Counted from the stretch's first letter, positions 1-27,154 are shown. The stretch: 37,865 bases of DNA from a virus (IMGVR_UViG_2548876954_000011), one strand, 5' to 3'. Notes: generated by a model not told the origin, from the sequence alone. Numbers and translations: made by a program.

Positions 1-1032
1 TCAAAAACTTGCTATTGATGTTGGTAGTGTTGCCAGCGGATTAAACCGTAATGCAGTTTCCAGATGATCTGGTGCCAGATGTGCGTAACGCATAGTCATT
101 TTTATATCGTGGTGTCCGAGAATTTTTTGTAAGGCGAGAATGTTTCCACCCGACATCATGAAGTGCGCCGCAAACGTATGGCGCAGAACGTGTGTGAGTT
201 GACCGCGAGGGAGCACGATAGACGTTTTTTCCATCACGGATAAAAATCGAAAATAGCAGTCTGTGAAGAAATTGAACCCATCAAGCGCCATGATCTCTTC
301 GTAAAGCTCTTTACTGATAGGGATGCTTCTGTTTTTCTTCCCCTTCGTTCTTACAAAGGTAATTCGGTATTTGGTCACCTGTGAGCGGGTAAGATTTACG
401 GCTTCACGCCAGCGTGCGCCTGTGCTTAAGCATATCTTAACTACCAGTGCCAGAATTGGGTCCTGACGTTTGCAATCAGCCAGTAATTCAACAATCTGCT
501 CATGGGTAAGCCATGCCATCTCTTTTTCTGCGATGGTGAATTTTCGCATGTTCTCCAGTGGGTTCGGATACGACCATTCGCCCAGGCGGGATAGTTCGCT
601 AAAAACACTACTTAGATAGCTTTGCTCCAGGTTAATGGTGACCGGGCTTGCTCCTTTCTTCCATTTCTCGCTGAAGTAGATCTCTCCTGTCAGGCGTTTA
701 TCTCGATAGTGGGCAAACATTTTAGATGTGAGATCGGTTGCAAGGGGATTGCCCAGAGCGTCAACCATCAACAGCAGTTTGTCATAGACATGCTGGCCAG
801 CTGTCAGAGATTTACCATGTAGTTTGAACCATAGTTCAACCACGTCTTTCAGTGTTCGACGATCCACTGATTCGCCCAGCCAGGGCTTTGCTTCGGTTTC
901 TTCCATCGTGTGACGCTCAAAAGCCAGAGCTTCGCCTTTGGTGGCGAATTGTTTACGCACACGACGTCCGCTACGTCCGGCGGGGTAACATTCGCAAAGC
1001 CATTTTCCTGTGGTGAGTTTTCGTACTGCCAT
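1..1032 (-). CDS. int: Tyrosine site-specific integrase (P2/186 Int family)
   Basis: 343 aa; C-terminal catalytic region ...HVLRHTFAAHFMMSGGNILALQKILGHHDIKMTMRYAHL (R-H-R-Y type); stop codon is window positions 1-3; position next to the repressor as in 186. Confidence 0.9.
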   Translation of the reverse strand: MAVRKLTTGKWLCECYPAGRSGRRVRKQFATKGEALAFERHTMEETEAKPWLGESVDRRTLKDVVELWFKLHGKSLTAGQHVYDKLLLMVDALGNPLATDLTSKMFAHYRDKRLTGEIYFSEKWKKGASPVTINLEQSYLSSVFSELSRLGEWSYPNPLENMRKFTIAEKEMAWLTHEQIVELLADCKRQDPILALVVKICLSTGARWREAVNLTRSQVTKYRITFVRTKGKKNRSIPISKELYEEIMALDGFNFFTDCYFRFLSVMEKTSIVLPRGQLTHVLRHTFAAHFMMSGGNILALQKILGHHDIKMTMRYAHLAPDHLETALRFNPLATLPTSIASF

Positions 1033-1113: not shown

Positions 1114-2091
1114 TCACTTTTGGGTAACAATGTCATCATTTGCTGCTGATTTTTTATCTGCAAGTGTGCCTAGAATGTTAAATAAATTTGGAGGTGGCTG
1201 CGTTTTATCTGCGAATGCAGAATTAGCTGACATGTTCCAATCTTTAAACACATCAATAGCATCTTGTTTTGTCGCAGTTGAACCATAAATTTGTAAGAAG
1301 ACCTCACCAAACATTAGAGCGTGTTGTCTGTCTTTTCTTATGATTGCTTCATGTGTGTATTTTTTTGAATTGTTTAAACAAAAATAAGAAAGCCAAGAAA
1401 GTAATGCAACCCCAAGTAAGCCCCTAGTGAAATAATAAAAAAGTTCAATGGGGGTGGCGTCTTTTATATCTATTTTATAGAAAAATGTTAAAAAGGCGGC
1501 ACTTATAGATAATAATGATAAAAGTATTCCGGCTATCGCCCAATTGTAAGACATTGCAGTGAAATCCTTATCGTCCTGATGTAATTTTGCTTTGACACCC
1601 TGCACATATTCAGGAACTTTTTCGTCAATTTTATTTTGTTGAATTTTGCTTGAAAGTTTTTGGTTTTGAAGCTTTAACTCTTTGTTTTGGGCGTGTTGGA
1701 GTTTTAGCTGTGATGCTAGTTTTTCTTTACTGTCCATTGCAGTTAATAACTCTATCTGCAACTTGTTGAATTGGTCTAACTGCGAATTATGGCTTTTTTG
1801 AAACTCGCGTAGTTTATGTTCTAACTCATCAATTTTTAAAAGGTACTTATCTGCTTCACTGTTTTGCAATGATGTATGGTCAGGCATGAAGGACTCATAC
1901 ATATATTTTTTTTTAGAAAAATTTCGACTGTAAGCATCAAGCAGTATATCGAATTCATCAAACTCTAGAGAATCCAATAGGTTTTTCAAAGTATTATAGG
2001 TGTCATTAGATAAATGTGATTTTAATTCTCCTAATTTAATACTTCTAGACGTATATTTTTCACTATTACTTTTATAATCAGAACCACTCAT
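1114..2091 (-). CDS. Hypothetical coiled-coil protein with two predicted transmembrane helices; cargo gene inserted between repressor and integrase
   Basis: 325 aa ORF; Lys/Glu/Gln-rich heptad-like N-terminal half (…LQIELLTAMDSKEKLASQLKLQHAQNKELKLQNQKL…), hydrophobic segments AIAGILLSLLSISAAFLTFFY and GLLGVALLSWLSYFCL; visibly AT-rich compared with the phage backbone; same strand as repressor and int. Confidence 0.6.
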   Translation of the reverse strand: MSGSDYKSNSEKYTSRSIKLGELKSHLSNDTYNTLKNLLDSLEFDEFDILLDAYSRNFSKKKYMYESFMPDHTSLQNSEADKYLLKIDELEHKLREFQKSHNSQLDQFNKLQIELLTAMDSKEKLASQLKLQHAQNKELKLQNQKLSSKIQQNKIDEKVPEYVQGVKAKLHQDDKDFTAMSYNWAIAGILLSLLSISAAFLTFFYKIDIKDATPIELFYYFTRGLLGVALLSWLSYFCLNNSKKYTHEAIIRKDRQHALMFGEVFLQIYGSTATKQDAIDVFKDWNMSANSAFADKTQPPPNLFNILGTLADKKSAANDDIVTQK

Positions 2092-2103: not shown

Positions 2104-3048
2104 TTATAATTCTTCTATCAGAATAAAATTGCATTTTGCAATAACATCAATATCTGAAATTTTACATTCAAATGATAAATCATTGTCTGAAATTTTTAAT
2201 CTTCCTACAGGAATTCTAGTTAGGGTTCGAATGCTCACTTTCCCTTCTATTTCAACAATCCATTTACCATCTGTAATTTCATCGAATGATTGATTACATA
2301 GGTATGTTTTTTTTTCGGTGCTAACAATCAATGGTAATTGGATTGAGTCTGGTAGTAATGCTTTATCAAGCATATAGAAATTTGAATCAAATAGATTCCC
2401 GTCAGTAATTTTTTTGTGAGTAATAGCAATTACATCATTTCTTGCATCGTCAAACTTTGGGCCTTTACCAGTAGTTAGCCACATTAGTGAAGTACCCGTT
2501 TCGAGAGCGCACTTAATTATCCAGTCTGAAGGAAAAACATCACGCATATATCTTGTGGCTAATGTGCTTTTTGAAATACCTAAGTGATCAGCTAAGGCTT
2601 GGCGAGTCTTATAACCGTAAGCCCTAACAATTCGCTCTATTGCTTCCTTGCCACCCCGAGAATAATCAATGGTGTTTTCATTATCGAACTTTGGTTGTTT
2701 ATAGTGAACGTCATGATAAGAACCATCTTCGGAGTGTGTTTCAACATGCTGTTCTGGTGAAGGGGATGGCATTTGTTCGTCATCATCTGAACCAAATGCT
2801 AGCCATTTAATTGATGCTCCAGTTTCCATTGAGCAGATAACAACCCAATCTGCAGGAAATGTATCGCGGGCATATCTGTTAGCCATCGTGCTTTGGGAAA
2901 TACCTAGATGGTTACAGAATGCTTGGCGTGACTTGAAGCCATAAGCCATGAGTATCCGCTCGATTACTTTCTGACCACCGCGATTTTGTATGACAACGGC
3001 TTTCATATCGTCATCAATATGGCGAAATGTGAATTTTTGAGTTGACAT
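2104..3048 (-). CDS. CI-type immunity repressor candidate with two tandem CI-like HTH domains plus a C-terminal domain
   Basis: 314 aa; residues ~24-86 (GGQKVIERILMAYGFKSRQAFCNHLGISQSTMANRYARDTFPADWVVICSMETGASIKWLAFG) and ~132-194 (GGKEAIERIVRAYGYKTRQALADHLGISKSTLATRYMRDVFPSDWIIKCALETGTSLMWLTTG) are about 60% identical to each other and look like the phage CI-repressor N-terminal domain; divergent from the Apl/Cox-like gene, i.e. in the cI position of 186. Confidence 0.65.
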   Translation of the reverse strand: MSTQKFTFRHIDDDMKAVVIQNRGGQKVIERILMAYGFKSRQAFCNHLGISQSTMANRYARDTFPADWVVICSMETGASIKWLAFGSDDDEQMPSPSPEQHVETHSEDGSYHDVHYKQPKFDNENTIDYSRGGKEAIERIVRAYGYKTRQALADHLGISKSTLATRYMRDVFPSDWIIKCALETGTSLMWLTTGKGPKFDDARNDVIAITHKKITDGNLFDSNFYMLDKALLPDSIQLPLIVSTEKKTYLCNQSFDEITDGKWIVEIEGKVSIRTLTRIPVGRLKISDNDLSFECKISDIDVIAKCNFILIEEL

Positions 3049-5489: not shown

Positions 5490-5788
5490 CAAGGGCTGTG
5501 CGTATCCATCAATTAAAAATTGCACCTAAGTATTTCAACGCTGTGGTTGCAGGTCAAAAGACGGCTGAACTTCGTAAAGACGATCGTGGCTATAAAGTTG
5601 GTGATGTTCTTTCTCTTTGCGAATGGAAGCATGGCGTATTTACGGGTAGGGAATGGGCCGCTGTTATCTCTCATGTGCTTCCGGTTAATGACGTCATGGC
5701 AGTTTCAGAACAATGGGTGATGCTATCAATTCGCCCATTAACCCCATTAGAAGCTTTAGGATATGTTATTGCAGGAGGTGCTGTATGA
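5486..5788 (+). CDS. ASCH/DUF3850-like small protein
   Basis: ATG at 5486 preceded by GGAGG; 100 aa ([42 protein letters not shown]…); family recalled from memory. Confidence 0.5.
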
Positions 5789-6642
5789 GTACCATCCTGA
5801 AATGGGCGGGTAATAAAACTGCCATTATGTCCGAACTGAAAAAACATCTTCCTGCTGGCCCGCGACTGGTTGAACCTTTCGCGGGTTCCTGTGCTGTGAT
5901 GATGGAGACGGATTACCCCAGCTATCTTGTTGCGGATATTAATCCTGATTTAATCAACCTCTATAAAAAGGTTGCTGCTGATTGCGAGGCGTTTATATCT
6001 CGTGCCAGAGCTTTATTTGAGGAAGCAAACAGGGAGTTGGCTTATTACAACATAAGGCAGGAGTTTAATTACTCCACTGAAATTACTGATTTCATGAAAG
6101 CGGTATATTTCCTGTATCTCAATCGTCATGGTTACCGTGGGTTATGTCGTTATAACAAGAGCGGGCATTTCAACATTCCATACGGTAATTATAAAAATCC
6201 GTATTTCCCTGAAAAAGAAATTCGCGCATTTGCAGAGAAAGCCCAGCGAGCAACGTTTATCTGCGCCAGCTTTGATGAAACGCTGGCGATGCTGCAGGTG
6301 GGGGATGTGGTGTATTGCGATCCGCCTTATGACGGTACGTTTTCCGGCTATCACACTGACGGCTTCACTGAAGATGACCAGTATCACCTGGCATCTGTTC
6401 TTGAATATCGATCATCAGAAGGTCATCCAGTCATTGTTTCTAACAGTGACACATCCCTGATCCGTTCGCTGTATCGAAATTTCACTCACCACTACATCAA
6501 GGCAAAACGCAGCATCGGCGTGTCGGCTGGCGAGAGTAAATCTGCAACAGAAATCATCGCTGTTTCCGGGCCGCGCTGCTGGGTGGGATTTGATCCTTCG
6601 CGTGGCGTGGATAGTTCTGCCGTGTACGGAGTGCGTGCATGA
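5785..6642 (+). CDS. dam: DNA N6-adenine methyltransferase (Dam family)
   Basis: [23 protein letters not shown]…EPFAGSCAV (AdoMet motif) and [11 protein letters not shown] (DPPY catalytic motif); about 285 aa. Confidence 0.85.
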
Positions 6643-9053
6643 GCCATGCTGATATGAACAACTGCAGCGGCTTTAACGAGGCCGCCGCAGCATTCTCATG
6701 GAACAGCCCGAAAAAGGCTATTAACCCTTATCTGGACCCGGCGGAAGTTGCGCCGGTTTCTGCGCTTTCAAACCTGATCACTCTGTACGCTGCCGATAAC
6801 GAGCAGGAACAACTGCGCCGCGAGGCACTGAGTGATCAGGTCTGGGAGCGTTATTTCTTTAATGAATCCCGTGATCCTGTCCAGCGCGAAATGGAGCAGG
6901 ATAAGCTCATTAGCCGGGCAAAGTTGGCGCATGAGCAGCAGCGTTTTAACCCGGACATGGTCATTCTGGCAGACGTTAACGCCCAGCCTTCCCATATCAG
7001 CAGGCCGCTGATGCAACGTATTGAATACTTCAGCAGCCTTGGCAGGCCAAAGGCTTATTCCCGCTATTTGCGTGAGACGATTAAGCCATGTCTGGAACGG
7101 CTGGAGCATGTACGCGACAGTCAGCTATCCACTTCTTTTCGCTTTATGGCAAGCCATGAAGGGCTGGACGGCCTGCTGATTCTGCCTGAAATGAGTCAGG
7201 ATCAGGTGAAACGCCTGTCCACCCTTGTTGCTGCGCATATGAGCATGTGCCTTGATGCAGCTTGTGGCGATTTGTATGCCACCGATGACGTTAAGCCAGA
7301 AGAAATCCGCAAGACATGGGAAAAGGTGGCAGCAGAAACCCTGCGACTGGATGTCATACCGCCTGCGTTTGAGCAACTCCGCCGGAAAAGAAACCGCCGT
7401 AAACCCGTGCCCTATGAACTCATTCCGGGTTCGCTGGCGCGTATGTTGTGCGCCGACTGGTGGTACCGGAAATTATGGAAGATGCGTTGCGAATGGCGGG
7501 AAGAGCAGTTGCGTGCTGTTTGCCTGGTCAGCAAAAAAGCATCTCCCTATGTCAGCTATGAAGCCGTGATGCATAAACGTGAGCAGCGCCGTAAGTCGCT
7601 GGAGTTTTTCCGTTCTCATGAACTGGTGAACGAAGACGGCGACACGCTGGACATGGAGGATGTGGTAAACGCCAGCAGCAGCAACCCTGCGCATCGCCGC
7701 AATGAGATGATGGCCTGTGTTAAAGGTCTGGAGCTTATCGCGGAAATGCGCGGTGACTGCGCCGTTTTCTACACCATCACCTGTCCGTCACGTTTCCATT
7801 CCACGCTAAATAACGGCAGGCCCAACCCGACCTGGACAAATACGACGGTAAGACAAAGCAGTGATTATCTGGTCGGCATGTTTGCTGCATTTCGTAAGGC
7901 GATGCACAAAGCCGGATTGCGCTGGTATGGCGTGCGGGTGGCTGAGCCGCATCATGACGGTACAGTTCACTGGCACCTGTTGTGTTTTATGCGCAAAAAA
8001 GATCGCCGCACCATTACTGCTTTGTTGCGTAAGTTTGCCATTCGTGAAGACCGCGAGGAGCTGGGTAATAACACAGGACCACGCTTTAAGTCTGAGCTGA
8101 TAAACCCGCGCAAAGGTACGCCAACAAGCTACATCGCGAAATACATCAGTAAGAACATTGACGGGCGTGGTCTGGCTGGCGAGATCAGCAAGGAAACGGG
8201 TAAATCCCTGCGTGATAACGCTGAATACGTTAATGCCTGGGCGTCTCTTCATCGTGTTCAGCAATTCCGCTTCTTTGGCATTCCGGGGCGTCAGGCTTAC
8301 CGTGAACTGCGATTGCTGGCTGGTCAGGCGGCAAGGCAACAGGGGGACAAAAAAGCAGGTGCGGCGGTACTGGATAACCCACGCCTTGATGCCATCCTGG
8401 CTGCTGCTGATGCTGGTTGTTTTGCCACCTACATCATGAAGCAGGGCGGCGTACTGGTTCCCCGCAAATATCACCTCATCAGAACCGCTTATGAAATCAA
8501 CGAAGAGCCGACCGCCTATGGCGATCACGGCATTCGTATTTATGGCATCTGGTCACCCATTGCAGAGGGCAAGATCTGCACTCATGCAGTGAAGTGGAAA
8601 ATGGTTCGTAAGGCCGTTGACGTTCAGGAGGCGGCAGCCGACCAGGGCGCTTGCGCCCCTTGGACTCGTGGCAATAACTGTCCCCTTGCTGAAAATTTGA
8701 ACCAACAGGAGAAAGATAAATCAGCTGATGGGGACACCAGAACGGATATTACCCGCATGGATGACAGGGAGTTGCACGATTACCTGCACAGTATGAACAA
8801 AAAAGAGCGCCGGGAACTGGCTGCAAGGTTACGTCTGGTGAAACCGAAACGGCGTAGAGACTACAAACAGCGAATTACAGACCATCAACGACAGCAGCTC
8901 GTCTATGAACTGAAGTCCAGAGGATTTGATGGCAGCGAGAAAGAGGTCGATTTACTCCTTCGCGGCGGCAGTATTCCATCAGGAGCAGGCTTGCGTATCT
9001 TCTATCGGAACCAGCGTCTGAAGGAAGATGATAAGTGGCGGAACCTGTATTAA
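6639..9053 (+). CDS. A: Replication initiation endonuclease (P2 gpA-like rolling-circle initiator)
   Basis: 804 aa; HUH-type motif [10 protein letters not shown] (around 7963-7992) and active-site tyrosine region YIAKYISK (around 8131-8154); position after dam in the early operon. Confidence 0.9.
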
Positions 9054-9405: not shown

Positions 9406-9639
9406 ATGCGCATTGAAATAATGATCGATAAAGAGCAGAAGATTAGCCAGTCTACCCTGGACGCCCTTGAATACGAGCTTTACCGCAATCTGCGCCCCCT
9501 ATATCCAAAAACGGTAATTCGCATCCGCAAAGGTAGCTCTAACGGTGTGGAACTGACCGGACTGCAACTGGACGAAGAAAGGAAGCAAGTGATGAAAATT
9601 ATGCAGAAAGTGTGGGAAGACGACAGCTGGCTGCATTAA
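9406..9639 (+). CDS. DinI-family protein (186 Tum-like antirepressor candidate)
   Basis: 77 aa, MRIEIMIDKEQKISQSTLDALEYELYRNLRPLYPKTVIRIRKG…WEDDSWLH, resembling DinI (MRIEVTI…); sits downstream of a LexA box, as tum does in 186. Confidence 0.7.
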   Translation: MRIEIMIDKEQKISQSTLDALEYELYRNLRPLYPKTVIRIRKGSSNGVELTGLQLDEERKQVMKIMQKVWEDDSWLH

Positions 9640-9772
9640 GAAACGTTGCTGGCGTCTGAACTTGCTTCTGGCGTCAGCAAGGTTGAACAACGAGCTGTGC
9701 GAGGCGTTAGCTCTGTGGTGCATGTCTATACCGCATAAGATCGCATGATTGTTTGAGGATCGTTTTTGCTCA

Positions 9773-9798
9773 GGCCCGCCAGAACTGGCGGGCTTTTG
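9773..9798 (+). terminator. Rho-independent terminator (possibly bidirectional)
   Basis: Perfect 9-bp GC-rich stem GCCCGCCAG / CTGGCGGGC with a 2-nt loop, followed by TTTT; an A/T run also lies on the other side. Confidence 0.5.
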
Positions 9799-9842: not shown

Positions 9843-9861
9843 GGCGTGGCGGGGATACGAG
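9843..9861. other. Putative cos (cohesive end) site
   Basis: GGCGTGGCGGGGATACGAG resembles my recollection of the 186/P2 19-nt cohesive ends (GGCGTGGCGGGGAAAGCAT / GGCGAGGCGGGGAAAGCAC), 13 of the first 13 nt matching 186; recalled, not verified. Confidence 0.3.
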
Positions 9862-9889
9862 CGCGCGCTGAAAAGGTTTAGCTAAATTT

Positions 9890-9919
9890 TTGTCGATAGG
9901 TAGTTTTAGTTGTTATACA
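9890..9919 (+). promoter_or_regulatory. Putative sigma70 promoter for the ATPase/protease cassette
   Basis: TTGTCG, 17-nt spacer, then TTATAC/TATACA, inside a very AT-rich T-tract region upstream of the ATG at 10053. Confidence 0.3.
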
Positions 9920-10052
9920 AAAGTGTCACTGGTTTTGTTTTGAGCATTTGTGGTGCTAAAAATATTTTTTTTGGTTCAAAATTACCTTAAAAAGGTTTTT
10001 TTGGTGTATGATTGTTTGAAAAGTGGTTCAGTTTTGCCATAAGGGTGGTTAG

Positions 10053-11135
10053 ATGATAAACGTTACAAACGAAATGCTCATTGATGTTGTCAGTGATGCT
10101 CTTACCGGGAAGAGGGAAAGTCTCCTCATGCGGTTGCGGATTATGGCAAAAAAACTAAAAAAAGAATCTCCTGAATTAGCGGGTAAATTAGAAGATTTAC
10201 TTATTAATACAGGTGGCGCAATTGCAGTCGAAAGGGCTAATCCAGTTGTTCCTAAAATAACACCTGTTGATGCGGATACAAGACAAAAGCTGCTAGTTGA
10301 AACATATCCTGTGGTCATTGATGTTGAACCTGTTTGGCCAACAAAAACTGATGTTCAACTGAATCGATTTGTGGCTGAGTGGGAAATGAAAGAACGCCTT
10401 TATAAAGAAGGGTTGCATCCGTCCAAATCTCTTCTTATGGGAGGACCACCCGGTGTGGGGAAGACTTTGGCTGCAAAGTGGCTCGCTTTTAAACTCGATA
10501 TGCCATTGTTAACATTAGATCTCGCAAGTGTAATGAGTAGCTACTTGGGGAAAACGGGTAATAATATTAAGGCAGTCCTCAATTATGCTTCGTCATTCCC
10601 TTGTGTACTGCTTCTTGACGAATTTGATGCGATTGCTAAAAAAAGGGATGATGCAACAGATGTTGGAGAACTAAAAAGATTAGTTACAGTATTATTGCAA
10701 GCAATTGATGAATGGCCAAATACGTCTGTTCTTATAGCAGCAACTAACCATGCGGAGCTGCTTGATCCTGCTGCATGGAGAAGATTCGATCGAGTTATTG
10801 ATTTTGAATATCCAACACAAGACCTAATGAGAAGATATCTCTGTTCTAAAAATATTGGAGATAGCTTATCGTACTATATTGCTACAAAACTCGAAAAAGT
10901 TTCATATGCAGTTCTTGAGAGAGCTATAAATCAAGCTAAAAGAAATGCCATTATAGAAGATATTCCTTTAAGTTCAGCTTTAATTGATGAGTTGTTAGAT
11001 GGCGTGTCACTTGATGATGTTATAAAAAACATGTCAAACAACAATGTATCACAAAGAAAAATCGCTTTAGATTTGGGGATTTCAAGGTCACAAGTACGTA
11101 AGGTTTTGACGGTTGAGGATGAAGACAATGAATGA
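10053..11135 (+). CDS. AAA+ ATPase (IetA-like), first gene of the cargo cassette
   Basis: 360 aa; Walker A GGPPGVGKT (around 10440-10466), Walker B LLLDEFD (around 10610-10630); C-terminal HTH-like segment SQRKIALDLGISRSQVRKVL; AT-rich; stop overlaps the protease start (ATGAATGA). Confidence 0.85.
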   Translation: MINVTNEMLIDVVSDALTGKRESLLMRLRIMAKKLKKESPELAGKLEDLLINTGGAIAVERANPVVPKITPVDADTRQKLLVETYPVVIDVEPVWPTKTDVQLNRFVAEWEMKERLYKEGLHPSKSLLMGGPPGVGKTLAAKWLAFKLDMPLLTLDLASVMSSYLGKTGNNIKAVLNYASSFPCVLLLDEFDAIAKKRDDATDVGELKRLVTVLLQAIDEWPNTSVLIAATNHAELLDPAAWRRFDRVIDFEYPTQDLMRRYLCSKNIGDSLSYYIATKLEKVSYAVLERAINQAKRNAIIEDIPLSSALIDELLDGVSLDDVIKNMSNNNVSQRKIALDLGISRSQVRKVLTVEDEDNE

Positions 11136-13320
11136 TAAAAATATGCTTCTTGGCTATGGTGAAACACTAACTAACCCTGTTAAACTTAACAGAGGTGGAG
11201 GTGAAAAGAATAAACCTTACTCTTATTCAGAAAATAAACCAGTGATATCTGCTCAACTGGAAGAGTTGATTGAGGAAATTAATACCCTTCCATTGTTAGC
11301 AATGCCTGAAGGTAAGGCTGTAGCAAAATTTGTTTTGCATCCGGCATTCTTAGCAAAAAGTTATTTTCCAGTAAGTCTTTTTGAGCGATTTTCCCTAGAA
11401 AGCATAGGCAGTAAGGCTGTAAAAGTAAAACCTAGAAAAGATATTAAAAAAAGAGGGCGAAAAGAGGAATACACTACAGCGTGTATTTATGTTTCTGGCA
11501 AAAAAGAAAGTTTTCAATCATTCTTAGACTCTGTAAATCAAGATACCCTAACGAAAGGGCAGCAAAATGATTTTGTCACCTTAGAAAATATTTCAATACT
11601 GGAAGTTTCAGATAAAGTAAAAACGATTAATAGCAATGAAGTTATGAGTATTGAGGTCGCCTTACATACTCCTGATACAAGTTCCTCTATTGTCGATAGT
11701 TTTGAAGTTTTTGCTTCGCAAAATGGTGCTGTTATAGATAAGGCAAGAAGTATAAAGGTTAAGGGGCTAACCTTTATGCCTATTAAGGCTAGTAAAGATG
11801 TAGCTTTAAAAGTTGCAGAGTTTTCATTTCTCAGGACTTTGAGAGAACTTCCTGAATTAAGGCTAAGTGAGCCTGTTATATCACGTTCTGTGATTCAAAC
11901 ATCTAACCTTAGTTTACCATCTGAAGGAGCGGTAAACCCACATATAAAGGTTGCCATATTCGATGGTGGATTGGGGATCGATGATTTCAATCCTTGGGTA
12001 ACAGAGTACACTTTCAACGGTAATGCTAGTACTAATGCAAAACTTCTTTCTCATGGACAAGATGTCACCTCTACTGTGTTATTTGGTGTTCTTGGCTCTG
12101 AAACGGAAAAATTAAGTGTTCCTTATTGTAATATTGACCATTATCGTGTACTGGATTCCAATGTTAATAACTCAGATGTCGATCTTTTTGACGTTCTGAT
12201 CCGTATTAAAAGTGTATTAGAACAAAAAAAATATGATTATATCAATCTGAGCTTAGGACCTAGATTACCTGTTGATGACGATGACGTGCATGTGTGGACC
12301 TCAACTCTTGAGGAGATACTTGCATCAGGAGAAACACTTTGTACTGTCGCGGTTGGAAATGATGGTCAGCTGCCTGCCAAGTTAAATCGAATTCAACCAC
12401 CTGCTGATTTAGTTAATGGTCTGTCAGTAGGTGCAGCAACCTCTTTATCTGATAGTTGGGAAAGATGTTCTTACAGTTGTATTGGTCCTGGACGAAGCCC
12501 TGGCTTTGTGAAGCCTGATGGAGTTGCATTTGGAGGACATTCTGATGAGCCATTCCAGGTATACAGCCCTATGGTTAATGGTCTTGCCCGCACTGCGGGG
12601 ACTAGCTTTTCAGCTCCATTAGTCCTGAGGCAAGCAATCGCGTTAAGTGCTTCTCTAAATTACAACATTACACCACTTACGGCTAAAGCTCTGCTTATAC
12701 ATCATGCGGAGAGCAATAATATCAATCGTGCTGAAGTTGGTTGGGGACGATTTCCTCATGATCTTAGTGAAGTAATATTTTGTGATGATGATGAAGTTAA
12801 AGTTATATATCAAGGTACTTTAAAACCATCACAACACATGCGAGCACCTATTCCGTTTCCAGATGTACCTATGCGTGGATGTGTAAATTTAAGAGCGACA
12901 TTCTGCTTTTCCAGTCCTGTAGATGCGGAACATCCTTTGAATTATACAAGAAGCGGTCTAGAAGTAACCATGAGAAAAGGTGTTTCAGATAGTTCCGGGT
13001 TAACGTTTCCTCTTTTTAATCTAAAAAATGTTTATGCAGATGAAAATGAGCAACGTGTTGATGCACATAAATGGGAGACTACGTTAAGAAGTGAACACAA
13101 ATTTAAACCGAATGAGCTGACAAACCCATGCTTTGATATTATCTACTATGGTAGAGACTGTGGTATGCCTATTGATGTTGACGAGTTAGAAGAACTACCA
13201 TATGTTCTTGTCGTGACTTTATCTGCTGAAGAAATGCCGGATTTATATAACCTAATTAGGCAGAAATATCAAACCTTACAGCCTATACAAGTTCAACAGC
13301 AAATTATGTTACGTACTTAA
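11128..13320 (+). CDS. Subtilisin-like serine protease (peptidase S8 family, IetS-like), probably cytoplasmic
   Basis: 730 aa from the ATG at 11128 (GAGGA about 9 nt upstream; in-frame alternatives at 11113 and 11119); S8 catalytic motifs in the right order: D in VAIFDGGLG (codon 11962-11964), H in LSHGQDV (12052-12054), oxyanion N in AVGNDGQ, S in AGTSFSAP (12604-12606); no N-terminal signal peptide evident. Confidence 0.85.
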   Translation: MNDKNMLLGYGETLTNPVKLNRGGGEKNKPYSYSENKPVISAQLEELIEEINTLPLLAMPEGKAVAKFVLHPAFLAKSYFPVSLFERFSLESIGSKAVKVKPRKDIKKRGRKEEYTTACIYVSGKKESFQSFLDSVNQDTLTKGQQNDFVTLENISILEVSDKVKTINSNEVMSIEVALHTPDTSSSIVDSFEVFASQNGAVIDKARSIKVKGLTFMPIKASKDVALKVAEFSFLRTLRELPELRLSEPVISRSVIQTSNLSLPSEGAVNPHIKVAIFDGGLGIDDFNPWVTEYTFNGNASTNAKLLSHGQDVTSTVLFGVLGSETEKLSVPYCNIDHYRVLDSNVNNSDVDLFDVLIRIKSVLEQKKYDYINLSLGPRLPVDDDDVHVWTSTLEEILASGETLCTVAVGNDGQLPAKLNRIQPPADLVNGLSVGAATSLSDSWERCSYSCIGPGRSPGFVKPDGVAFGGHSDEPFQVYSPMVNGLARTAGTSFSAPLVLRQAIALSASLNYNITPLTAKALLIHHAESNNINRAEVGWGRFPHDLSEVIFCDDDEVKVIYQGTLKPSQHMRAPIPFPDVPMRGCVNLRATFCFSSPVDAEHPLNYTRSGLEVTMRKGVSDSSGLTFPLFNLKNVYADENEQRVDAHKWETTLRSEHKFKPNELTNPCFDIIYYGRDCGMPIDVDELEELPYVLVVTLSAEEMPDLYNLIRQKYQTLQPIQVQQQIMLRT

Positions 13321-13326
13321 CAATGT

Positions 13327-13350
13327 GGAGGGGTTCCCCCTCCTTTATTA
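13327..13350 (+). terminator. Rho-independent terminator after the protease gene
   Basis: GGAGGGG-TTC-CCCCTCC hairpin (7-bp GC stem) followed by TTTATTAA; occupies most of the 38-bp gap before the convergent portal gene. Confidence 0.55.
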
Positions 13351-13358
13351 AGATTTAT

Positions 13359-14408
13359 CTATGTTGATTGTGGGTCATCGTTTATTAAGTTATATTTTTC
13401 AAAATGGATAATATTAATTCCTAACCATTCATTAAATTCCTGTAATCGTTTTTGTAAAGGCATTAATTCATTTCGAACAAACACTCGACTCGCCTTCTCC
13501 ACATCCCCAAACCCCCCAACATTATTCGGCATAATCCCCATCATTTGCGGCGGCACACGATGCGCTGCCATCATGTCATCGCGGCTGACATTTTTGATAT
13601 TCAGAAACTCATCCTTCGCCGCGACTTCTGACAACGGGATGATCTGAAGCCCGTCCTTTTTGCCGTTAGGCGAGTACATAAACAGGTTGCGGAAGTTGCC
13701 AGGGCCTTTGGCGCTTTTCATCGCATTGCGGAGGTTGTTCACATCCTCCTGGTTCTGCGCGGCATCGGTCATGTACATGATGAAGCCTGCATGACTGCCG
13801 TTAATGTAATACTTGCGGCGGAACAGCGTGGCGGACTCGTTGAGCAGGGCTGATGGAATGGCAGAAAGATAACCTGGCAGGCCGTAGATCTCCTGGTTGA
13901 TGTCCGGTTCCATCAGATGAAAAATGCTGCCTTTCGTGAACTGATACGGCTGGGTTGTCATACCGTATTGCACAAACCAGTAGGTATCCAAGTCTAACCC
14001 GCGTCGGGTGTATTTTGCCAGAGCAGGCTCAAGGGCGATAACTTCACCGAAGCGGTTCGTGCGTTTCTCCAGGTAGGCGTTACCAAATACCAGATAGTCC
14101 TGCACAAAACGTGAAAAAGCCTGCTGGCTGAGCAGCGGGTGAGGGATGTAGGTACTGGTCAGAATGTTGCATTTCACCGCAATTGGTGAACTGTGATGCA
14201 CGGCGGCGCGGAAGGTGCGCGCCAGTCCGTCAAAGCTTACTGGCGGCTCATACCAGCGATCTGTCTGTACGCATTCCACATAGTCCAGCAGTTCGCGGCG
14301 GTCCAGAACAGGAACGGGATCGCCGAAGCTGAATGCCTCTGCTGAAGTCTGGCTTTTATGCTGGGTCTGGTTCTGCGACGCAGCGCGGTTCTTCTTACTC
14401 TTTCCCAT
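13359..14408 (-). CDS. Q: Portal protein (P2 gpQ-like)
   Basis: About 349 aa; first gene of the leftward late operon, overlapping the terminase stop (TGATG); length and position match P2 Q. Confidence 0.85.
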   Translation of the reverse strand: MGKSKKNRAASQNQTQHKSQTSAEAFSFGDPVPVLDRRELLDYVECVQTDRWYEPPVSFDGLARTFRAAVHHSSPIAVKCNILTSTYIPHPLLSQQAFSRFVQDYLVFGNAYLEKRTNRFGEVIALEPALAKYTRRGLDLDTYWFVQYGMTTQPYQFTKGSIFHLMEPDINQEIYGLPGYLSAIPSALLNESATLFRRKYYINGSHAGFIMYMTDAAQNQEDVNNLRNAMKSAKGPGNFRNLFMYSPNGKKDGLQIIPLSEVAAKDEFLNIKNVSRDDMMAAHRVPPQMMGIMPNNVGGFGDVEKASRVFVRNELMPLQKRLQEFNEWLGINIIHFEKYNLINDDPQST

Positions 14409-16174
14409 CAAAAAATCTCCACAATATTGCTGGTATTGGCGGACTCGCCCTGCAGCGGTTCGTTAAACAGTGCGTGCATTGTTGCCCAGGCCAGATCGGC
14501 ATGGCTGGCTTCTTCGCTGCGGCTGGCTTCATAGGTCGGGCGGTTGCCGCTGGCGGTGGTGGCGCGACGGATTGCCATAAATGACTGCGCTATGTCGGTG
14601 TGTCCGGCGTCAAACTCCAGACGACGGTGACTGATAATGTCGTAGGCTTTGAGTACCAGGGCGTTTTTAACGTTGGGGTTGTAGACAAACTCCCGGACGG
14701 CAGGAAAGAACGCTTTCACGTTCTCGTAAACCCCGTGACCAACACCTGTCGAGTCGATGCCGATGTATGTCACGTTGTACTGTTCGGTCAGTTTTTTGAT
14801 GGCGTCAGCCTGGGCGCGGAAGTCCATCCCGCGCCACTGGTGACGCTCAAGAATGCGGAACTTACCGCCCGGCACGGCTGGCGGTGCCACCACCACGCAC
14901 CCGGCGCTGTCGCCGTTTTGCGTACCTTTTGCCGGGTCATAACCGATCCATACTTCGCGCCAGCCAAACGGGCGCAGGGCCAGTGCATGAAAGTCGGTCC
15001 AGACTTCCCAGCTGTCCACCATGCACGCCTGCAGCTCGCTGAGCGGGAACACGGACGCGAGATCGTCCACGAACTCGCACATCAGCAGGTTCTGGTATTC
15101 GTCCGGGCTGTACTCCATGCGCAACTGGTCAAGGTCGAACAGGTTACAGCCGCCGCGCACCGCATCTTCCACGGTGACTATCTGGCGGTATTGCCCGTCT
15201 GCGCACAGCAGGCCGGGGGCCAGATTGCTATGGGACAGGTCGATGTCCACCTTGTCGGCTTTGTTGCGTCCACGGTTGAACAGCGCACCGGACCAGAACG
15301 GATAAGCACTGTGGGTCAGGCTGGATGGCGTGGAAAAATAGGTTTGTCGCCATTTTTTGTGAATAGCCATACCGGAAGCCACTTTGCGCAGCTCCTGGAA
15401 TTTCGGTATCCAGAAATATTCATCCAGATACAGGTTGCCGTGGTAACTCTGGGCCGTGCGGGCATTGGTGCCGAGGAAGTAAAGCGTGGCCCCGTTGGGA
15501 AGCACCATCGGATCGCCTTTCAGCTCCACCTCCACTTCTTTGGCGAAGTCGATGATGTACTGTTTAAAGACGTGGGCCTGTGCCTTACTGGCGGAAAGGA
15601 AAATCTGGTTACGTCCGGTTAGCAGGGCGTCAATCAGGGCTTCACGGGCAAAATAGAAGGTCGCGCCGATCTGGCGTGACTTCAGCAGGTTGCGGATGCG
15701 GTTGGTTTTTCCGGCTTCCCACCAGTGGCGCTGGTAGTTGAACATGGAGGAATGGAAGATTTCTTCCAGCTTCTCAATCTGCTCATCGGTGAAGACATTT
15801 TTTTCCGGCTGACGGCGCGGGCCTTTGTTGCGGTTGGCGACGTTAGGGTTTAAGTCAGCTTCGTTGCCGCCATTGTTAAACTTGCCGATCCGCGCGTGGC
15901 GCTCAGACTGGCGCGCCAGCAGGTCAATCTCTTTGAAATCTTTCCCTTCTTTGTGCTCCTTCATAATGAGCTGGCAGTAGCGTGCGGCGGTGGTGAGCTG
16001 CATCTGATCCAGCGGCCCATAGTCACCCCACTTGTCGCGTTTTTTCCAGCTGTGAACGGTTGCAACTTTCTCGCCCAGCATTTCAGCAATGCGGGCGACG
16101 CGGTATCCCTGAAAGTACAGCAGCATGGCCTGCCGACGGGGATCGAGATCTGCGGGTGTCAGTGTGGTGTTCAT
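14408..16174 (-). CDS. P: Terminase large (ATPase) subunit (P2 gpP-like)
   Basis: 588 aa (P2 P is about 590 aa); N-terminal HTH-like region, ATPase and nuclease regions; divergent from the O gene. Confidence 0.9.
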   Translation of the reverse strand: MNTTLTPADLDPRRQAMLLYFQGYRVARIAEMLGEKVATVHSWKKRDKWGDYGPLDQMQLTTAARYCQLIMKEHKEGKDFKEIDLLARQSERHARIGKFNNGGNEADLNPNVANRNKGPRRQPEKNVFTDEQIEKLEEIFHSSMFNYQRHWWEAGKTNRIRNLLKSRQIGATFYFAREALIDALLTGRNQIFLSASKAQAHVFKQYIIDFAKEVEVELKGDPMVLPNGATLYFLGTNARTAQSYHGNLYLDEYFWIPKFQELRKVASGMAIHKKWRQTYFSTPSSLTHSAYPFWSGALFNRGRNKADKVDIDLSHSNLAPGLLCADGQYRQIVTVEDAVRGGCNLFDLDQLRMEYSPDEYQNLLMCEFVDDLASVFPLSELQACMVDSWEVWTDFHALALRPFGWREVWIGYDPAKGTQNGDSAGCVVVAPPAVPGGKFRILERHQWRGMDFRAQADAIKKLTEQYNVTYIGIDSTGVGHGVYENVKAFFPAVREFVYNPNVKNALVLKAYDIISHRRLEFDAGHTDIAQSFMAIRRATTASGNRPTYEASRSEEASHADLAWATMHALFNEPLQGESANTSNIVEIF

Positions 16175-25648: not shown

Positions 25649-26092
25649 ATGGAAATGGTTTATAGCGCCTCAAATAATAGTTTTTTCGCTAAAAATGATG
25701 TGGCGAAATATGAACAGGCCGGATGGGAACTTGCTGATATTGTCGAAGTGACATATGACACTTACCTGGAATTTATTGAAGACAGAACGTTGCAAGGGAA
25801 AGTACGCATCGCGGGTGATGATGGCCTTCCCACCTGGGGGGAAATTCCACCGCCAACTCATGAGGAACAAATTGCCGCAGCCGAACTGGAAAAGCAGCAA
25901 TTGATTAATCAGGTCAACGAATACATATACAGTAAGCAATGGCCTGGTAAAGCAGCGATTGGTCGCCTGAAAGGTGAGGAACAGGCGCAATATAATTTGT
26001 GGCTGGATTATCTGGACGCACTGGAACTGGTTGATACCTCCAGTGCTCCAGATATTGAATGGCCTACGCCTCCGGCAGTTCAGGCCAGATGA
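25649..26092 (+). CDS. G: Tail fibre assembly protein (P2 gpG / Tfa-like), paired with the current H C-terminus
   Basis: 147 aa immediately after H; …NLWLDYLDALELVDTSSAPDIEWPTPP C-terminus typical of Tfa chaperones. Confidence 0.75.
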   Translation: MEMVYSASNNSFFAKNDVAKYEQAGWELADIVEVTYDTYLEFIEDRTLQGKVRIAGDDGLPTWGEIPPPTHEEQIAAAELEKQQLINQVNEYIYSKQWPGKAAIGRLKGEEQAQYNLWLDYLDALELVDTSSAPDIEWPTPPAVQAR

Positions 26093-26675
26093 CATCCGGC
26101 GCGGTGCTCGTATCTGTTGCCGTCACCGCGTCAATGTAATCAAGCACGGCGTTAAGCCGGGTGGTTTCTGCCTGCGTCAGCTTCCGCCCGGCCTGTAATT
26201 TCAGCTGAATCAGACTGATCGAAGCCATTGCAGCATCAATCAGTGACTGGCGCTGTGCTTCTGCCGCTTCTACTGCGGCGCTATGCTGTGCCTCAGTATC
26301 TGTCACCCATTTCTCACCATCCCATTCATCGTATGGAGTTAACGGGGCGATAGTGGTTGTATTTTCAGGATATTCGCCAATTTCGGTGATGGTGATTTCA
26401 TCGCCGTTTTCAGTGTTGTAAACAGTTTCGCCACGATGGTCAGCAACGTATTCCCAACTGGTTAAATCAGCCTTGCGGCAGATTGCGAAACCTTCTTTTT
26501 TGCTGCCCGGCGCATCAACGCAGGAATTAGCTGGAACGCCAGCGCCAACCGGCAGATATTCAACGGATGAACCAATATATTCACGCGTTTCGCCATTGTA
26601 GTTGTAAACGGTAATAAATCCAGCCTCAGTGGCAAAACCGTTTTCATCCAAAGTGATTTTTTTTGTGGTCATCAT
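26064..26675 (-). CDS. Alternative tail fibre assembly protein (Tfa'), paired with the alternative fibre C-terminus
   Basis: 203 aa on the opposite strand; C-terminus …RLNAVLDYIDAVTATDTSTAPDVIWPELPEA parallels that of the plus-strand Tfa; its start overlaps the stop of the alternative fibre segment. Confidence 0.7.
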   Translation of the reverse strand: MMTTKKITLDENGFATEAGFITVYNYNGETREYIGSSVEYLPVGAGVPANSCVDAPGSKKEGFAICRKADLTSWEYVADHRGETVYNTENGDEITITEIGEYPENTTTIAPLTPYDEWDGEKWVTDTEAQHSAAVEAAEAQRQSLIDAAMASISLIQLKLQAGRKLTQAETTRLNAVLDYIDAVTATDTSTAPDVIWPELPEA

Positions 26676-27073
26676 GCTGCCCTTACAATGTAGTTAAATG
26701 CAATGTTGCGCGGCCTTGTTTCAGTCCCACCCGTCGCATTAGTTTCCCTACTGGAGGTGCCTCCGGTTTTTAATACATCATCTGCGCTGGTAGCTGATGT
26801 TGCCCCGCTAACTCGGATAGCTAATAAATGCGTATGAGATTGGATTGCTCCTCCCTGCGCAGATAGCAATGCACGGCCACTATCTATCCCTCGACCATCA
26901 TCCCAGCCACGAATAAATTCACCGCGTAAATCAGGCACTTTATTTGTCGGATAAGCCTTCGCCAGTTCCGGGTATTCTTCAGCAGAAAAAGCGGCACCGT
27001 TGCATTTCAGCCAGCCTGTTGGCGGAGTGGCGGAAGGCCACGGAACAGGCACGCCAACGGGTAATGCCGAACC
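26672..27073 (-). other. Promoterless alternative tail-fibre C-terminal coding segment, expressed only after inversion
   Basis: Minus-strand frame reads …FLNVGLGE|GSALPVGVPVPWPSATPPTGWLKCNGAAFSAEEYPEL…; the GLGE junction is encoded by the right crossover site; resembles Mu/P1/e14-type variable fibre C-termini. Confidence 0.6.
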
Positions 27074-27099
27074 TTCTCCCAAACCAACGTTTAAGAAAA
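27074..27099. repeat. Right crossover site of the invertible segment
   Basis: TTCTCCCAAACC-AA-CGTTTAAGAAAA; its left half is the reverse complement of GGTTTGGGAGAA, matching the right half of the 25277-25302 site (GGTTTAGGAGAA) at 11 of 12 positions. Confidence 0.6.
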
Positions 27100-27154
27100 T
27101 GCAGAGGTAACAGCTAACTGGCATCATCTCCGGTTTTTATTCAGGGGGATGATC

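What the first reader, a model, noticed from the sequence alone, without database searches (positions are those of the whole stretch)
9862..13358. AT-rich two-gene cargo cassette: AAA+ ATPase plus cytoplasmic S8 subtilisin-like protease, between cos/tum and the portal gene
The two genes are translationally coupled (ATGAATGA overlap), have their own AT-rich promoter region and their own terminator (13327-13350), and look compositionally foreign to the phage backbone (by eye, not computed). The ATPase has intact Walker A and B motifs and a C-terminal HTH-like tail. The protease has a complete S8 catalytic set (D in FDGG, H in SHGQ, N in GNDG, S in GTSFSAP), no signal peptide, and about 250 aa N-terminal and 200 aa C-terminal regions of unknown function. 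No P2-like structural or replication function maps here, and this location (between replication gene A and portal Q) is the position where P2-like phages carry variable cargo such as old/tin and, in published surveys, anti-phage systems. The architecture matches what I recall as the IetAS defence system (ATPase + S8 protease; Gao et al. 2020), so it is probably a member or relative of that poorly characterised family; mechanism and trigger are unknown.
Basis: partly seen in the sequence, partly recalled or inferred. Interest (0 to 1): 0.85.

Follow-up and report, generated by a model that had tools for sequence, protein, structure and literature searches.

The report
IetAS defence cassette in P2-like prophage
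This is a two-gene ATPase-plus-protease cassette of the known IetAS anti-phage / toxin-antitoxin family, carried in the known cargo hotspot beside the cos site of a P2-like E. coli prophage; these exact proteins are already listed in a published hotspot survey, so it is real but ordinary.

Summary
Window 10053-11135 encodes a 360-aa AAA+ ATPase. Window 11128-13320 encodes a 730-aa cytoplasmic S8 peptidase. The two genes overlap by 8 nt (ATGAATGA). The cassette is 37.9% GC against 55.2% for the structural genes, and a hairpin terminator follows it at 13327-13343.

PADLOC profiles identify the pair as IetA (E 6.7e-84) and IetS (E 1.8e-48). PHROGs and Pfam give no morphogenesis hit. D279, H309, N411 and S493 are invariant in 50 diverse homologues.

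The proteins are identical to RefSeq WP_001513123 and WP_001513122. Rousset et al. 2022 list this pair at the gpA-gpQ hotspot of P2-like prophages. The same survey curates a related hotspot pair (47% identity for IetA, 37% for IetS) as ietAS. The finding is therefore already known.

It is a divergent subtype: it scores below NCBIfam's IteA/IteS equivalog cut-offs, and I found no evidence that it has been tested.

Results added here:
- The cassette fills the cos-Q spacer (167 bp in P2).
- It is 99.9% identical between two prophage backbones that are otherwise 95-97% identical.
- IetA is a Cdc48/VAT-like unfoldase with an intact pore loop, an HTH tail and a conserved PVDxD(T/S)R motif.
- The N-terminus of IetS resembles tandem subtilase propeptides, and its C-terminus resembles a Tk-SP-type beta-sandwich.

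The mechanism (an ATPase-guarded, zymogen-like abortive-infection protease) is inferred, not shown.

The parts
9772..9795 (+). Terminator-like hairpin (10-bp GC stem followed by UUUUG) after the DinI/tum-like gene. It isolates the cassette from early-operon read-through.
   Evidence: -23.7 kcal/mol, z -4.4, 0 of 200 shuffles fold as well. Sequence.
9843..9871 (+). cos: a 19-nt cohesive-end-like sequence GGCGTGGCGGGGATACGAG plus the conserved flank CGCGCGCTGA. This is the left boundary of the cargo.
   Evidence: single match, 0 expected by chance.: P2 cosL is GGCGAGGCGGGGAAAGCAC TGCGCGCTGA.: homology to related phages ends at about 9869.
9872..10052 (+). AT-rich leader with putative, unproven promoter elements: a -10-like TATGAT at 10007-10012 and a 19-nt direct repeat TGGTTCAnnnTTnCCnTAA at 9972-9990 and 10024-10042 (a possible operator for the IetA HTH).
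   Evidence: No consensus sigma-70 site at the scan threshold.
10053..11135 (+). ietA: a 360-aa classical-clade AAA+ ATPase, the antitoxin/guard. Identical to WP_001513123.1.
   Evidence: IetA E 6.7e-84; AAA 5.4e-30; VAT/Cdc48/p97 D2, E 1e-41.
10263..10295 (+). IetA N-terminal motif PVDADTRQKLL (P71, D75, R77 and L80 invariant). It is also present in the distant Acidovorax IteA. Its function is unknown.
10443..10466 (+). IetA Walker A GPPGVGKT (K137).
10536..10559 (+). IetA pore-loop-1 region SSYLGKTG. Y164-L165-G166 aligns to the W-V-G pore loop of VAT D2.
10608..10628 (+). IetA Walker B LLLDEFD (D189, E190).
10776..10790 (+). IetA second region of homology, WRRFD (arginine fingers R243 and R244). 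Sensor-1 N232 lies at 10740-10751.
11046..11108 (+). IetA C-terminal helix-turn-helix-like tail VSQRKIALDLGISRSQVRKVL.
   Evidence: sub-threshold HTH hits. (homologues carry Pfam HTH_23/HTH_50/HTH_7)..
11128..13320 (+). ietS: a 730-aa cytoplasmic S8 subtilase, the toxin/effector. Identical to WP_001513122.1. Its start overlaps the ietA stop by 8 nt.
   Evidence: IetS E 1.8e-48; Peptidase_S8 2.9e-17; phrog_3964 over residues 2-730.
11128..11901 (+). IetS N-terminal module (residues 1-258): a helix plus two beta-alpha-beta-beta-alpha-beta (ferredoxin-like) units resembling subtilase I9 propeptides, followed by a conserved Arg/Pro-rich linker (FSFLRTLRELPELRL, 232-246).
11962..11964 (+). IetS catalytic Asp279.
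12052..12054 (+). IetS catalytic His309.
12358..12360 (+). IetS oxyanion-hole Asn411.
12604..12606 (+). IetS catalytic Ser493 (GTSFSAP).
12760..13317 (+). IetS C-terminal all-beta domain (residues ~545-730), similar in placement to the beta-jelly-roll/P-domain of Tk-SP, KP-43 and kexin.
   Evidence: The Foldseek alignments of 479-602 columns to 3afg, 1wmd and 1ot5 extend well beyond the ~280-column catalytic core. The domain assignment is inferred.
13327..13343 (+). Intrinsic terminator hairpin for ietAS (7-bp stem, 6 GC pairs, followed by TTTATT). It ends 15 nt before the convergent portal-gene stop at 13359.

Best explanation
The cassette is a horizontally exchanged IetAS-family module (ietA AAA+ ATPase, ietS S8 protease). 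It sits in the cos-proximal cargo hotspot of a 186/P2-like E. coli prophage integrated next to rybB.

Likely mode of action, which is inferred:
1. In the lysogen the operon is expressed from its own weak promoter, probably autoregulated through the IetA HTH tail.
2. IetA assembles into a Cdc48/VAT-type ring and uses ATP to keep IetS harmless. It does this either by holding IetS in an inhibited complex or by repeatedly unfolding and resetting activated molecules. IetS is additionally restrained by its own propeptide-like N-terminal module.
3. When a competing phage infects, a phage protein titrates or inhibits this guard.
4. IetS is released and degrades essential proteins. The cell stops growing or dies before the invader completes its cycle (abortive infection). 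This protects the clonal lysogen population and hence the prophage.

What is shown here: the identity, anatomy, motif integrity, fold similarities, location and mobility of the cassette. What comes from the literature: the toxin/antitoxin roles, the anti-phage activity, the requirement for protease activity and the abortive-infection phenotype, all established for other IetAS members. What is my inference: the unfoldase-guard and zymogen steps. The confidence of 0.85 applies to the identity and general role; I would put the specific guard/zymogen mechanism at about 0.3-0.35.
For: Identity:
- PADLOC IetA E 6.7e-84 and IetS E 1.8e-48. Pfam AAA and Peptidase_S8.
- 36% and 24% collinear identity to NCBI-named IteA and IteS, including the PVDxDSR motif, the HTH tail and all catalytic motifs.
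- 47% and 37% identity to the P2-hotspot pair that Rousset curated as ietAS.

Operon:
- The genes overlap by 8 nt here, in E. coli strain 127, Yersinia and Serratia, and by 1 nt in Vibrio and Leptospira.
- Terminators flank the unit.

Cargo status:
- 37.9% GC against 55.2% for the structural genes.
- The cassette fills the cos-Q spacer.
- A related phage carries a TIR gene in the same slot.
- The cassette is 99.89% identical between two prophages whose flanking A, Q and P genes are 95.3-97.1% identical and whose int-cI regions are unrelated.

IetA as an unfoldase:
- Best PDB relatives are VAT, Cdc48 and p97 (E 1e-41 to 1e-35), and the Y-L-G pore loop aligns to W-V-G of VAT.
- Walker A/B, sensor 1, the Arg fingers and pore-loop residues L165-G166 are invariant; Y164 is Y, F or L.

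IetS as a restrained protease:
- D279, H309, N411 and S493 are invariant.
- The AF2 model has pLDDT 82.6 and pTM 0.86.
- The best whole-chain match is the propeptide-bearing ProN-Tk-SP (E 3.5e-20, 602 columns).
- The N-module never occurs apart from IetS-length proteins among 531 representative clusters.

Literature:
- IetS is the toxin and IetA the antitoxin on pTiC58. Protease activity is needed for defence. An ietA mutant could not be constructed. The mechanism is 'unknown' (PMC13069673).
- A B. cereus ietAS acts by abortive infection and becomes toxic on expression of a single phage gene (bioRxiv 10.1101/2022.08.27.505566).
- E. coli ietAS is mostly prophage-borne (bioRxiv 10.1101/2022.08.21.504612).
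Against: - No experiment exists for this subtype. It scores far below NCBIfam's equivalog cut-offs, so phenotypes of tested IetAS systems may not transfer.
- No complex model could be built, so an IetA-IetS contact is not shown.
- The pore-loop aromatic residue is Leu in some family members.
- The promoter and operator are not established.
- Reported anti-phage effects of E. coli ietAS alone were weak in a 29-phage panel.
Confidence: 0.85

Rival explanations
1. The cassette is primarily an addiction (post-segregational killing) module that stabilises the prophage, as IetAS does for plasmid pTiC58. Anti-phage activity would be incidental or absent in this subtype.
For: IetAS was discovered as a plasmid-stability toxin-antitoxin pair (cited in PMC13069673). 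Full-length homologues sit on many plasmids, including Rhizobium and Agrobacterium replicons. Rousset notes plasmid-maintenance genes in the same P2 hotspot.
Against: An integrated prophage at rybB gains little from segregational killing. The slot is dominated by defence cargo (old/tin, retrons, TIR). Other IetAS members protect against phage. The two roles are not mutually exclusive.
Confidence: 0.25
2. IetA and IetS form a two-component ATP-dependent protease, like ClpXP or the proteasome. IetA would unfold selected phage or host substrates and hand them to IetS. The ATPase would then be an activator or specificity factor rather than a brake.
For: IetA belongs to the same clade as proteasomal, FtsH and Cdc48 unfoldases and keeps pore-loop residues. 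The genes are translationally coupled.
Against: Subtilases are monomeric open-cleft enzymes, not chambered proteases. Genetics in other members makes IetS toxic without functional IetA, and an ietA mutant was unclonable, which is the opposite of an obligatory activator. No docking motif is known.
Confidence: 0.12
3. The two proteins serve the phage's own life cycle, as a prohead protease plus a packaging or assembly ATPase, or in processing of a regulator.
For: The cassette lies next to the portal and terminase genes.
Against: PHROGs gives only unknown-function families, and Pfam, PADLOC and NCBIfam give no morphogenesis family. P2 itself has only 167 bp in this position. The relative 500465-1 has different genes there. 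The GPO scaffold/protease and both terminase subunits are encoded separately. The same pair occurs outside phages, in integrase/Prim-Pol islands, on plasmids and next to transposases.
Confidence: 0.02
4. The cassette is decaying, non-functional cargo.
For: It is rare, present in 11 of 5,426 complete E. coli genomes, and no strong promoter was detected.
Against: Both ORFs are intact. The proteins are identical to those of E. coli strain 127, and the DNA is at least 99.6% identical in all 11 genomes. All ATPase and catalytic residues are conserved. The 90%-identity cluster holds 160 member sequences on 99 contigs in E. coli and Salmonella.
Confidence: 0.03

Closest known systems
IetAS (Gao et al. 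2020 defence system; originally the ietA/ietS toxin-antitoxin pair of Agrobacterium plasmid pTiC58, Yamamoto et al. 2009)
   Same: Same two-gene order (AAA+ ATPase, then S8 protease). Full-length matches to the PADLOC IetA and IetS profiles. A shared N-terminal PVDxD(S/T)R motif and HTH tail in IetA. The same N-module, S8 domain and C-domain layout, with the catalytic D/H/N/S, in IetS.
   Different: A divergent subtype: 36% (IetA) and 24% (IetS) identity to an NCBI-named IteA/IteS pair, and bit scores at roughly one half and one seventh of NCBIfam's equivalog cut-offs. I found no evidence that it has been tested. The Gao and Yamamoto papers were not readable here.
The P2-hotspot ietAS of Rousset et al. 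2022 (Table S5B system 7, 400 occurrences)
   Same: Same hotspot between gpA and gpQ, same architecture, collinear alignment. The exact proteins of this window appear in their Table S5A.
   Different: Only 47% (IetA) and 37% (IetS, first 400 aa) identical to that common variant. This variant is much rarer, in 11 of 5,426 complete genomes.
ietHAS (Liu-DS4, NAR 2026, PMC13069673)
   Same: An IetA/IetS core. Protease activity is required for defence and IetA behaves as the antitoxin.
   Different: ietHAS has a third, essential SNF2-type helicase gene. None is present here or in the five other loci inspected.
old and tin of phage P2 (classical cargo of the same hotspot)
   Same: Accessory anti-phage cargo between gene A and portal gene Q.
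   Different: The proteins are unrelated. From my knowledge of the P2 map, old and tin lie on the A side of cos, whereas this cassette lies on the Q side, in the 167-bp cos-Q spacer of P2.
ATPase-guarded effectors: the TRIP13/HORMA off-switch in CBASS and the AriA-AriB pair in PARIS (functional analogy only)
   Same: An ATPase restrains an effector until a phage cue arrives. IetA gives weak PADLOC TRIP13 hits (E 3e-12).
   Different: The effector and sensor logic differ. IetA is closest to Cdc48/VAT rather than to TRIP13. The analogy is inferred, not tested.
Pro-subtilases with a C-terminal beta-domain (Tk-SP, KP-43, kexin/furin, PCSK9)
   Same: A propeptide-like fold, then the S8 core, then a beta-sandwich.
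   Different: IetS is cytoplasmic, has two ferredoxin-like units plus a long helix, shows 9-18% identity to the propeptide- and C-domain-bearing matches, has no Pfam I9 hit, and is partnered with an AAA+ protein.

Membership tests
IetAS defence/TA system | An AAA+ ATPase matching IetA profiles | tested here: met
   PADLOC PDLC02196 E 6.7e-84, residues 7-355 against profile positions 5-371 of 374. Walker A/B, sensor 1 and the Arg fingers are invariant.
IetAS defence/TA system | An S8 serine protease matching IetS profiles with an intact catalytic set | tested here: met
   PADLOC PDLC02197 E 1.8e-48, and five further IetS models also hit. D279, H309, N411 and S493 are invariant in 50 homologues.
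IetAS defence/TA system | The two genes are adjacent on the same strand, with ietA upstream | tested here: met
   8-nt overlap. The same arrangement is found in E. coli 127, Yersinia, Serratia, Vibrio and Leptospira loci.
IetAS defence/TA system | Scores above NCBIfam equivalog cut-offs (IteA_antiphage NF042959, 510 bits; IteS_antiphage NF042956, 900 bits) | tested here: not met
   247.7 and 122.8 bits. Both are the top NCBIfam hits but well below cut-off, so this is a divergent subtype rather than an equivalog of the exemplar.
IetAS defence/TA system | Protection against phage that depends on the protease active site | not testable with these tools
   Reported for other members only.
IetAS defence/TA system | IetS is toxic and is neutralised by IetA | not testable with these tools
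   Reported for pTiC58 and ietHAS.
P2-like cos-proximal defence hotspot cargo (Rousset et al. 2022) | Located between replication gene A and portal gene Q, next to cos, and variable among related phages | tested here: met
   Gene A at 6639-9053, cos at 9843-9861, Q at 13359-14411. A TIR gene occupies the same slot in phage 500465-1. This exact protein pair is listed in Table S5A.
Classical-clade AAA+ unfoldases (Cdc48/VAT/FtsH/proteasomal) | Walker A/B, pore-loop-1 aromatic-hydrophobic-Gly, and a second region of homology with Arg fingers | tested here: met
   Best PDB matches are VAT, Cdc48 and p97 (E down to 2.9e-41). YLG aligns to WVG. Motif conservation. Ring assembly and threading were not tested.
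Subtilase zymogens with an I9-type propeptide | An N-terminal beta-alpha-beta-beta-alpha-beta propeptide that docks on the catalytic domain and inhibits it | tested here: inconclusive
Phage morphogenesis protease / packaging ATPase | Match to prohead-protease or terminase families | tested here: not met
   No such hit in Pfam, PHROGs, NCBIfam or PADLOC.

The most novel reading that the evidence does not exclude
This divergent IetAS subtype may work as a 'guarded zymogen'. In this reading, a cytoplasmic subtilase is held in check by its own tandem propeptide-like domains and also by a Cdc48-like unfoldase that continuously resets it. The conserved IetA PVDxD(T/S)R motif would serve as the contact or pseudo-substrate, and a phage protein that jams the unfoldase would act as the trigger. 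No defence system has yet been shown to use an AAA+ unfoldase as the off-switch of a protease effector. This small prophage-borne pair would be a tractable model for testing it.
Probability: 0.3. Interest if true: 0.55.

Novelty: already known. Interest (0 to 1): 0.22.

Why it matters
As a discovery it matters little. The family, the hotspot and these exact proteins are already in the literature and in RefSeq.

Its residual value is as a compact natural example of an IetAS subtype that I found no evidence has been tested, from a family whose mechanism was still described as unknown in 2026. Several points make concrete mutational and structural tests possible:
- The intact Cdc48-like pore loop of IetA.
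- The family-wide N-terminal motif of IetA.
- The HTH tail with candidate operator repeats.
- The propeptide-like N-module of IetS.

The 99.9% identity of the cassette between backbones that are 95-97% identical is also a clean illustration of cassette swapping at the cos-Q junction of P2-like phages.

Tried and rejected
- A sequence search of the PDB found no solved IetA or IetS. Only subtilisin E matched IetS (E 0.0025), and generic AAA+ proteins matched IetA.
- A megablast of the cassette against 50,697 GenBank phage records found nothing. The cassette is known only from prophages in bacterial assemblies.
- The consensus promoter scan found no site upstream of ietA. A relaxed scan gave only 8/12 matches, so I do not claim a promoter.
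- Pfam found nothing in the IetS N- and C-terminal regions or in the IetA N-terminal region, even at E up to 10.
- The Gao 2020 and Yamamoto 2009 papers are not held, so I rely on how later papers cite them.
- The supplements of the 2026 P2/P4 preprint do not mention ietAS, and one look-up timed out.
- Literature searches for a structural or mechanistic IetAS study found none.
- tblastn against plasmids did not return pTiC58 itself at E below 1e-10, so direct similarity to the founding pair was not measured.
- A complex prediction (IetA with IetS) is not possible with the tools, and model coordinates are not exposed. I therefore could not check whether the N-module occludes the active site.
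- The morphogenesis reading was rejected, and so was the decayed-cargo reading.

Full report
**What is there.**
The window is an E. coli P2-family (186-like) prophage. It contains, in order:
- integrase at 1-1032 (-);
- cI at 2104-3048 (-);
- cII, a Dam-like methylase and replication gene A (6639-9053);
- a 62-aa ORF and a DinI/tum-like gene (9406-9639);
- the cassette;
- the convergent portal gene Q (13359-14411, -) and terminase gene P, followed by the late genes.

The right flank holds rybB (35088-35166, Rfam 105 bits) and grxA-ybjM-ybjL. The host junction lies at about 35076.

**Checking the observation.**
- The two ORFs are 10053-11135 (360 aa) and 11128-13320 (730 aa). The ietS ATG and the ietA TGA share the octamer ATGAATGA, and a GAGGA Shine-Dalgarno sequence lies 8 nt upstream. 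RefSeq calls the same starts in E. coli strain 127, and both proteins are identical to WP_001513123.1 and WP_001513122.1.
- The cassette is 37.9% GC, against 55.2% for the structural genes.
- A 7-bp hairpin with 6 GC pairs, followed by TTTATT, lies at 13327-13343.
- A stronger hairpin followed by UUUU lies at 9772-9795, downstream of the DinI gene (z -4.4). The cassette is therefore bracketed by terminators and probably needs its own promoter.
- No consensus promoter was found. Only 8/12 matches exist, together with a -10-like TATGAT (10007-10012) that is conserved in Yersinia and Serratia copies. The promoter claim is plausible but unproven.
- Neither protein has a hydrophobic segment.

**Identity.**
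- PADLOC gives IetA at E 6.7e-84 (near full length) and IetS at E 1.8e-48, with five further IetS models also hitting.
- Pfam gives AAA (5.4e-30) and Peptidase_S8 (2.9e-17).
- PHROGs gives full-length matches to two unknown-function families and nothing morphogenetic.
- NCBIfam's best hits are IteA_antiphage and IteS_antiphage, but at 247.7 against 510 bits and 122.8 against 900 bits. Pairwise identity to an NCBI-named IteA/IteS pair on an Acidovorax plasmid is 36% and 24%, collinear through all motifs. This is therefore a divergent IetAS subtype.

**Already catalogued.**
Rousset et al. 2022 (PMC9122126) defined the gpA-gpQ cos-proximal hotspot of P2-like phages. [quoted passage not shown] Their Table S5B ranks a related pair seventh (400 occurrences), annotated 'ietAS (Gao et al, 2020)'. 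That variant is 47% (IetA) and 37% (IetS) identical to ours. Our variant occurs at 99.6% identity or higher in 11 of 5,426 complete E. coli genomes, always chromosomal. It occurs in no GenBank phage record.

**Location and mobility.**
- The 19-mer GGCGTGGCGGGGATACGAG (9843-9861) plus CGCGCGCTGA matches P2 cosL, GGCGAGGCGGGGAAAGCAC TGCGCGCTGA.
- Homology to related phages stops at about 9869.
- In P2, cosL and the Q stop are 167 bp apart. Here they are 3.5 kb apart, so the cassette occupies the cos-Q spacer.
- Phage 500465-1 has a TIR-domain gene in the same slot.
- Between this window and the strain 127 prophage, the cassette differs at 4 of 3,497 positions (99.89% identity). Gene A is 96.2% identical, Q 95.3% and P 97.1%, and the int-cI regions are unrelated. 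This indicates recent exchange of the cassette as a unit.
- Close homologues sit after gene A in a Serratia P2-like prophage and in an integrase/Prim-Pol island in Yersinia. More distant ones lie next to integrases, transposases or a reverse transcriptase in Vibrio and Leptospira, and on many plasmids.

**Anatomy of IetA.**
- Its best solved relatives are VAT, Cdc48 and p97 (E 2.9e-41 to 1e-34). Y164-L165-G166 aligns with the W-V-G pore loop of VAT D2.
- In 50 homologues, Walker A (K137), Walker B (D189, E190), sensor 1 (N232), R243/R244 and pore-loop residues L165-G166 are invariant. Position 164 is Y, F or L.
- An N-terminal motif PVDxD(T/S)RQxLL is invariant at P71, D75, R77 and L80, and it persists in the distant Acidovorax IteA.
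- The C-terminal 30 residues are HTH-like. The Pfam hits here are sub-threshold, but Pfam HTH_23, HTH_50 or HTH_7 is detected in many homologues.
- A 19-nt direct repeat (9972-9990 and 10024-10042, 52 nt apart) flanks the -10-like element. It is a candidate operator and is untested.

**Anatomy of IetS.**
- More than 1,000 homologues of about 725-735 aa keep the whole architecture. D279, H309, N411 and S493 are invariant.
- The AlphaFold2 model is confident (pLDDT 82.6, pTM 0.86).
- The best Foldseek match is ProN-Tk-SP, which has a propeptide, an S8 domain and a beta-jelly-roll (E 3.5e-20, 602 columns). KP-43, S1P and Kex2 follow, all of which have C-terminal beta-domains.
- An exhaustive phmmer search of 1.84 billion representatives finds this module in 531 clusters. 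In all 150 listed hits it sits at residues about 1-255, and the proteins never exceed about 766 aa. It is therefore an IetS-specific module, not a shuffled sensor domain.

**Mechanism.**
From the literature:
- IetS is a toxin and IetA its antitoxin on pTiC58.
- Protease activity is required for defence.
- An ietA mutant could not be constructed.
- The anti-phage mechanism 'remains unknown' (PMC13069673).
- A B. cereus ietAS acts by abortive infection and becomes toxic when a single SPbeta gene is expressed.
- E. coli ietAS is typically prophage-borne and has modest activity alone.

Combining this with the anatomy, I infer an ATP-driven guard. An IetA ring holds or resets IetS, whose propeptide-like module adds autoinhibition. 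A phage factor disables the guard, and IetS then proteolyses essential targets and aborts the infection. The HTH tail probably autoregulates the operon. The guard, zymogen and operator steps are all inference.

**Rivals.**
- A prophage-addiction role is possible and not exclusive.
- An activator-type AAA+ protease goes against the antitoxin genetics.
- A morphogenesis role is rejected.
- Dead cargo is rejected.

**Verdict.**
It is a catalogued IetAS-family cassette in the catalogued P2 hotspot. Its residual interest is as a divergent subtype, which I found no evidence has been tested, of a family whose mechanism is unsolved.

Noticed in passing
window 1114-2091 (-): A very AT-rich (about 30-35% GC) 325-aa ORF lies between the integrase and cI. 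Its N-terminal half is coiled-coil-like, and by eye there are two hydrophobic, TM-like stretches (about residues 185-205 and 225-245). It matches only phrog_2628 (unknown function, E 1.9e-72) and nothing in Pfam, PADLOC or NCBIfam. It is absent from the related strain 127 prophage, where int and cI abut. It is a candidate second cargo gene (exclusion or abortive-infection type) in the int-cI slot.
   Followed up: partly
window 2104-3048 (-): The cI repressor ORF is 314 aa and carries two tandem copies of the Phage_CI_repr HTH domain (about residues 20-88 and 128-196, clearly paralogous) before the Phage_CI_C domain. The CI of the strain 127 relative is 210 aa. A duplicated DNA-binding domain in a 186-type CI looks unusual.
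   Followed up: partly
window 35076-35166: A full-length RybB sRNA gene (Rfam RF00110, 105 bits) lies on the minus strand immediately beside the prophage/host junction (about 35076). The prophage therefore sits at the 3' end of rybB. In 1,116 of 5,426 complete E. coli genomes one match covers at least 80% of window 33800-37865, spanning P2-like D/ogr genes and this flank.
   Followed up: partly
window 9843-9871 compared with L008 1-29: The cargo lies on the portal side of cos, in the spacer that is only 167 bp long in P2. From my memory of the P2 map, its old and tin genes lie on the other (gene A) side of cos. In virion DNA this cassette would sit at the extreme left end.
   Followed up: partly
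window 9862-13358 compared with L001: The cassette is 99.89% identical between two prophages whose flanking genes are 95.3-97.5% identical and whose int-cI modules are unrelated. This is a sharp signature of recent cassette exchange, with breakpoints at cos and at the Q stop codon.
   Followed up: yes
L001 2564-4321 (E. coli strain 127): In the relative that carries the same cassette, an annotated 'anti-phage dCTP deaminase' gene lies directly outside the integrase. This is a second defence gene at the prophage edge.
   Followed up: no
window 5713-6642 (+): A Dam-like orphan N6-adenine methyltransferase lies in the early operon just upstream of gene A and overlaps its start (PADLOC oMTase E 1e-111; Pfam MethyltransfD12).
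   Followed up: no
window 26064-27721: The tail-fibre region has minus-strand ORFs (26064-26675, 26672-27127) facing plus-strand fibre genes, next to a 190-aa plus-strand ORF (27149-27721), with local GC dips. It looks like an invertible host-range segment with its invertase, but I did not check this.
   Followed up: no
L007 5582-6691 (Acidovorax plasmid p1-T1): The NCBI-named iteA/iteS pair there is flanked by an integrase and a Shedu nuclease gene, forming a small defence island on a mobilisable plasmid.
   Followed up: no
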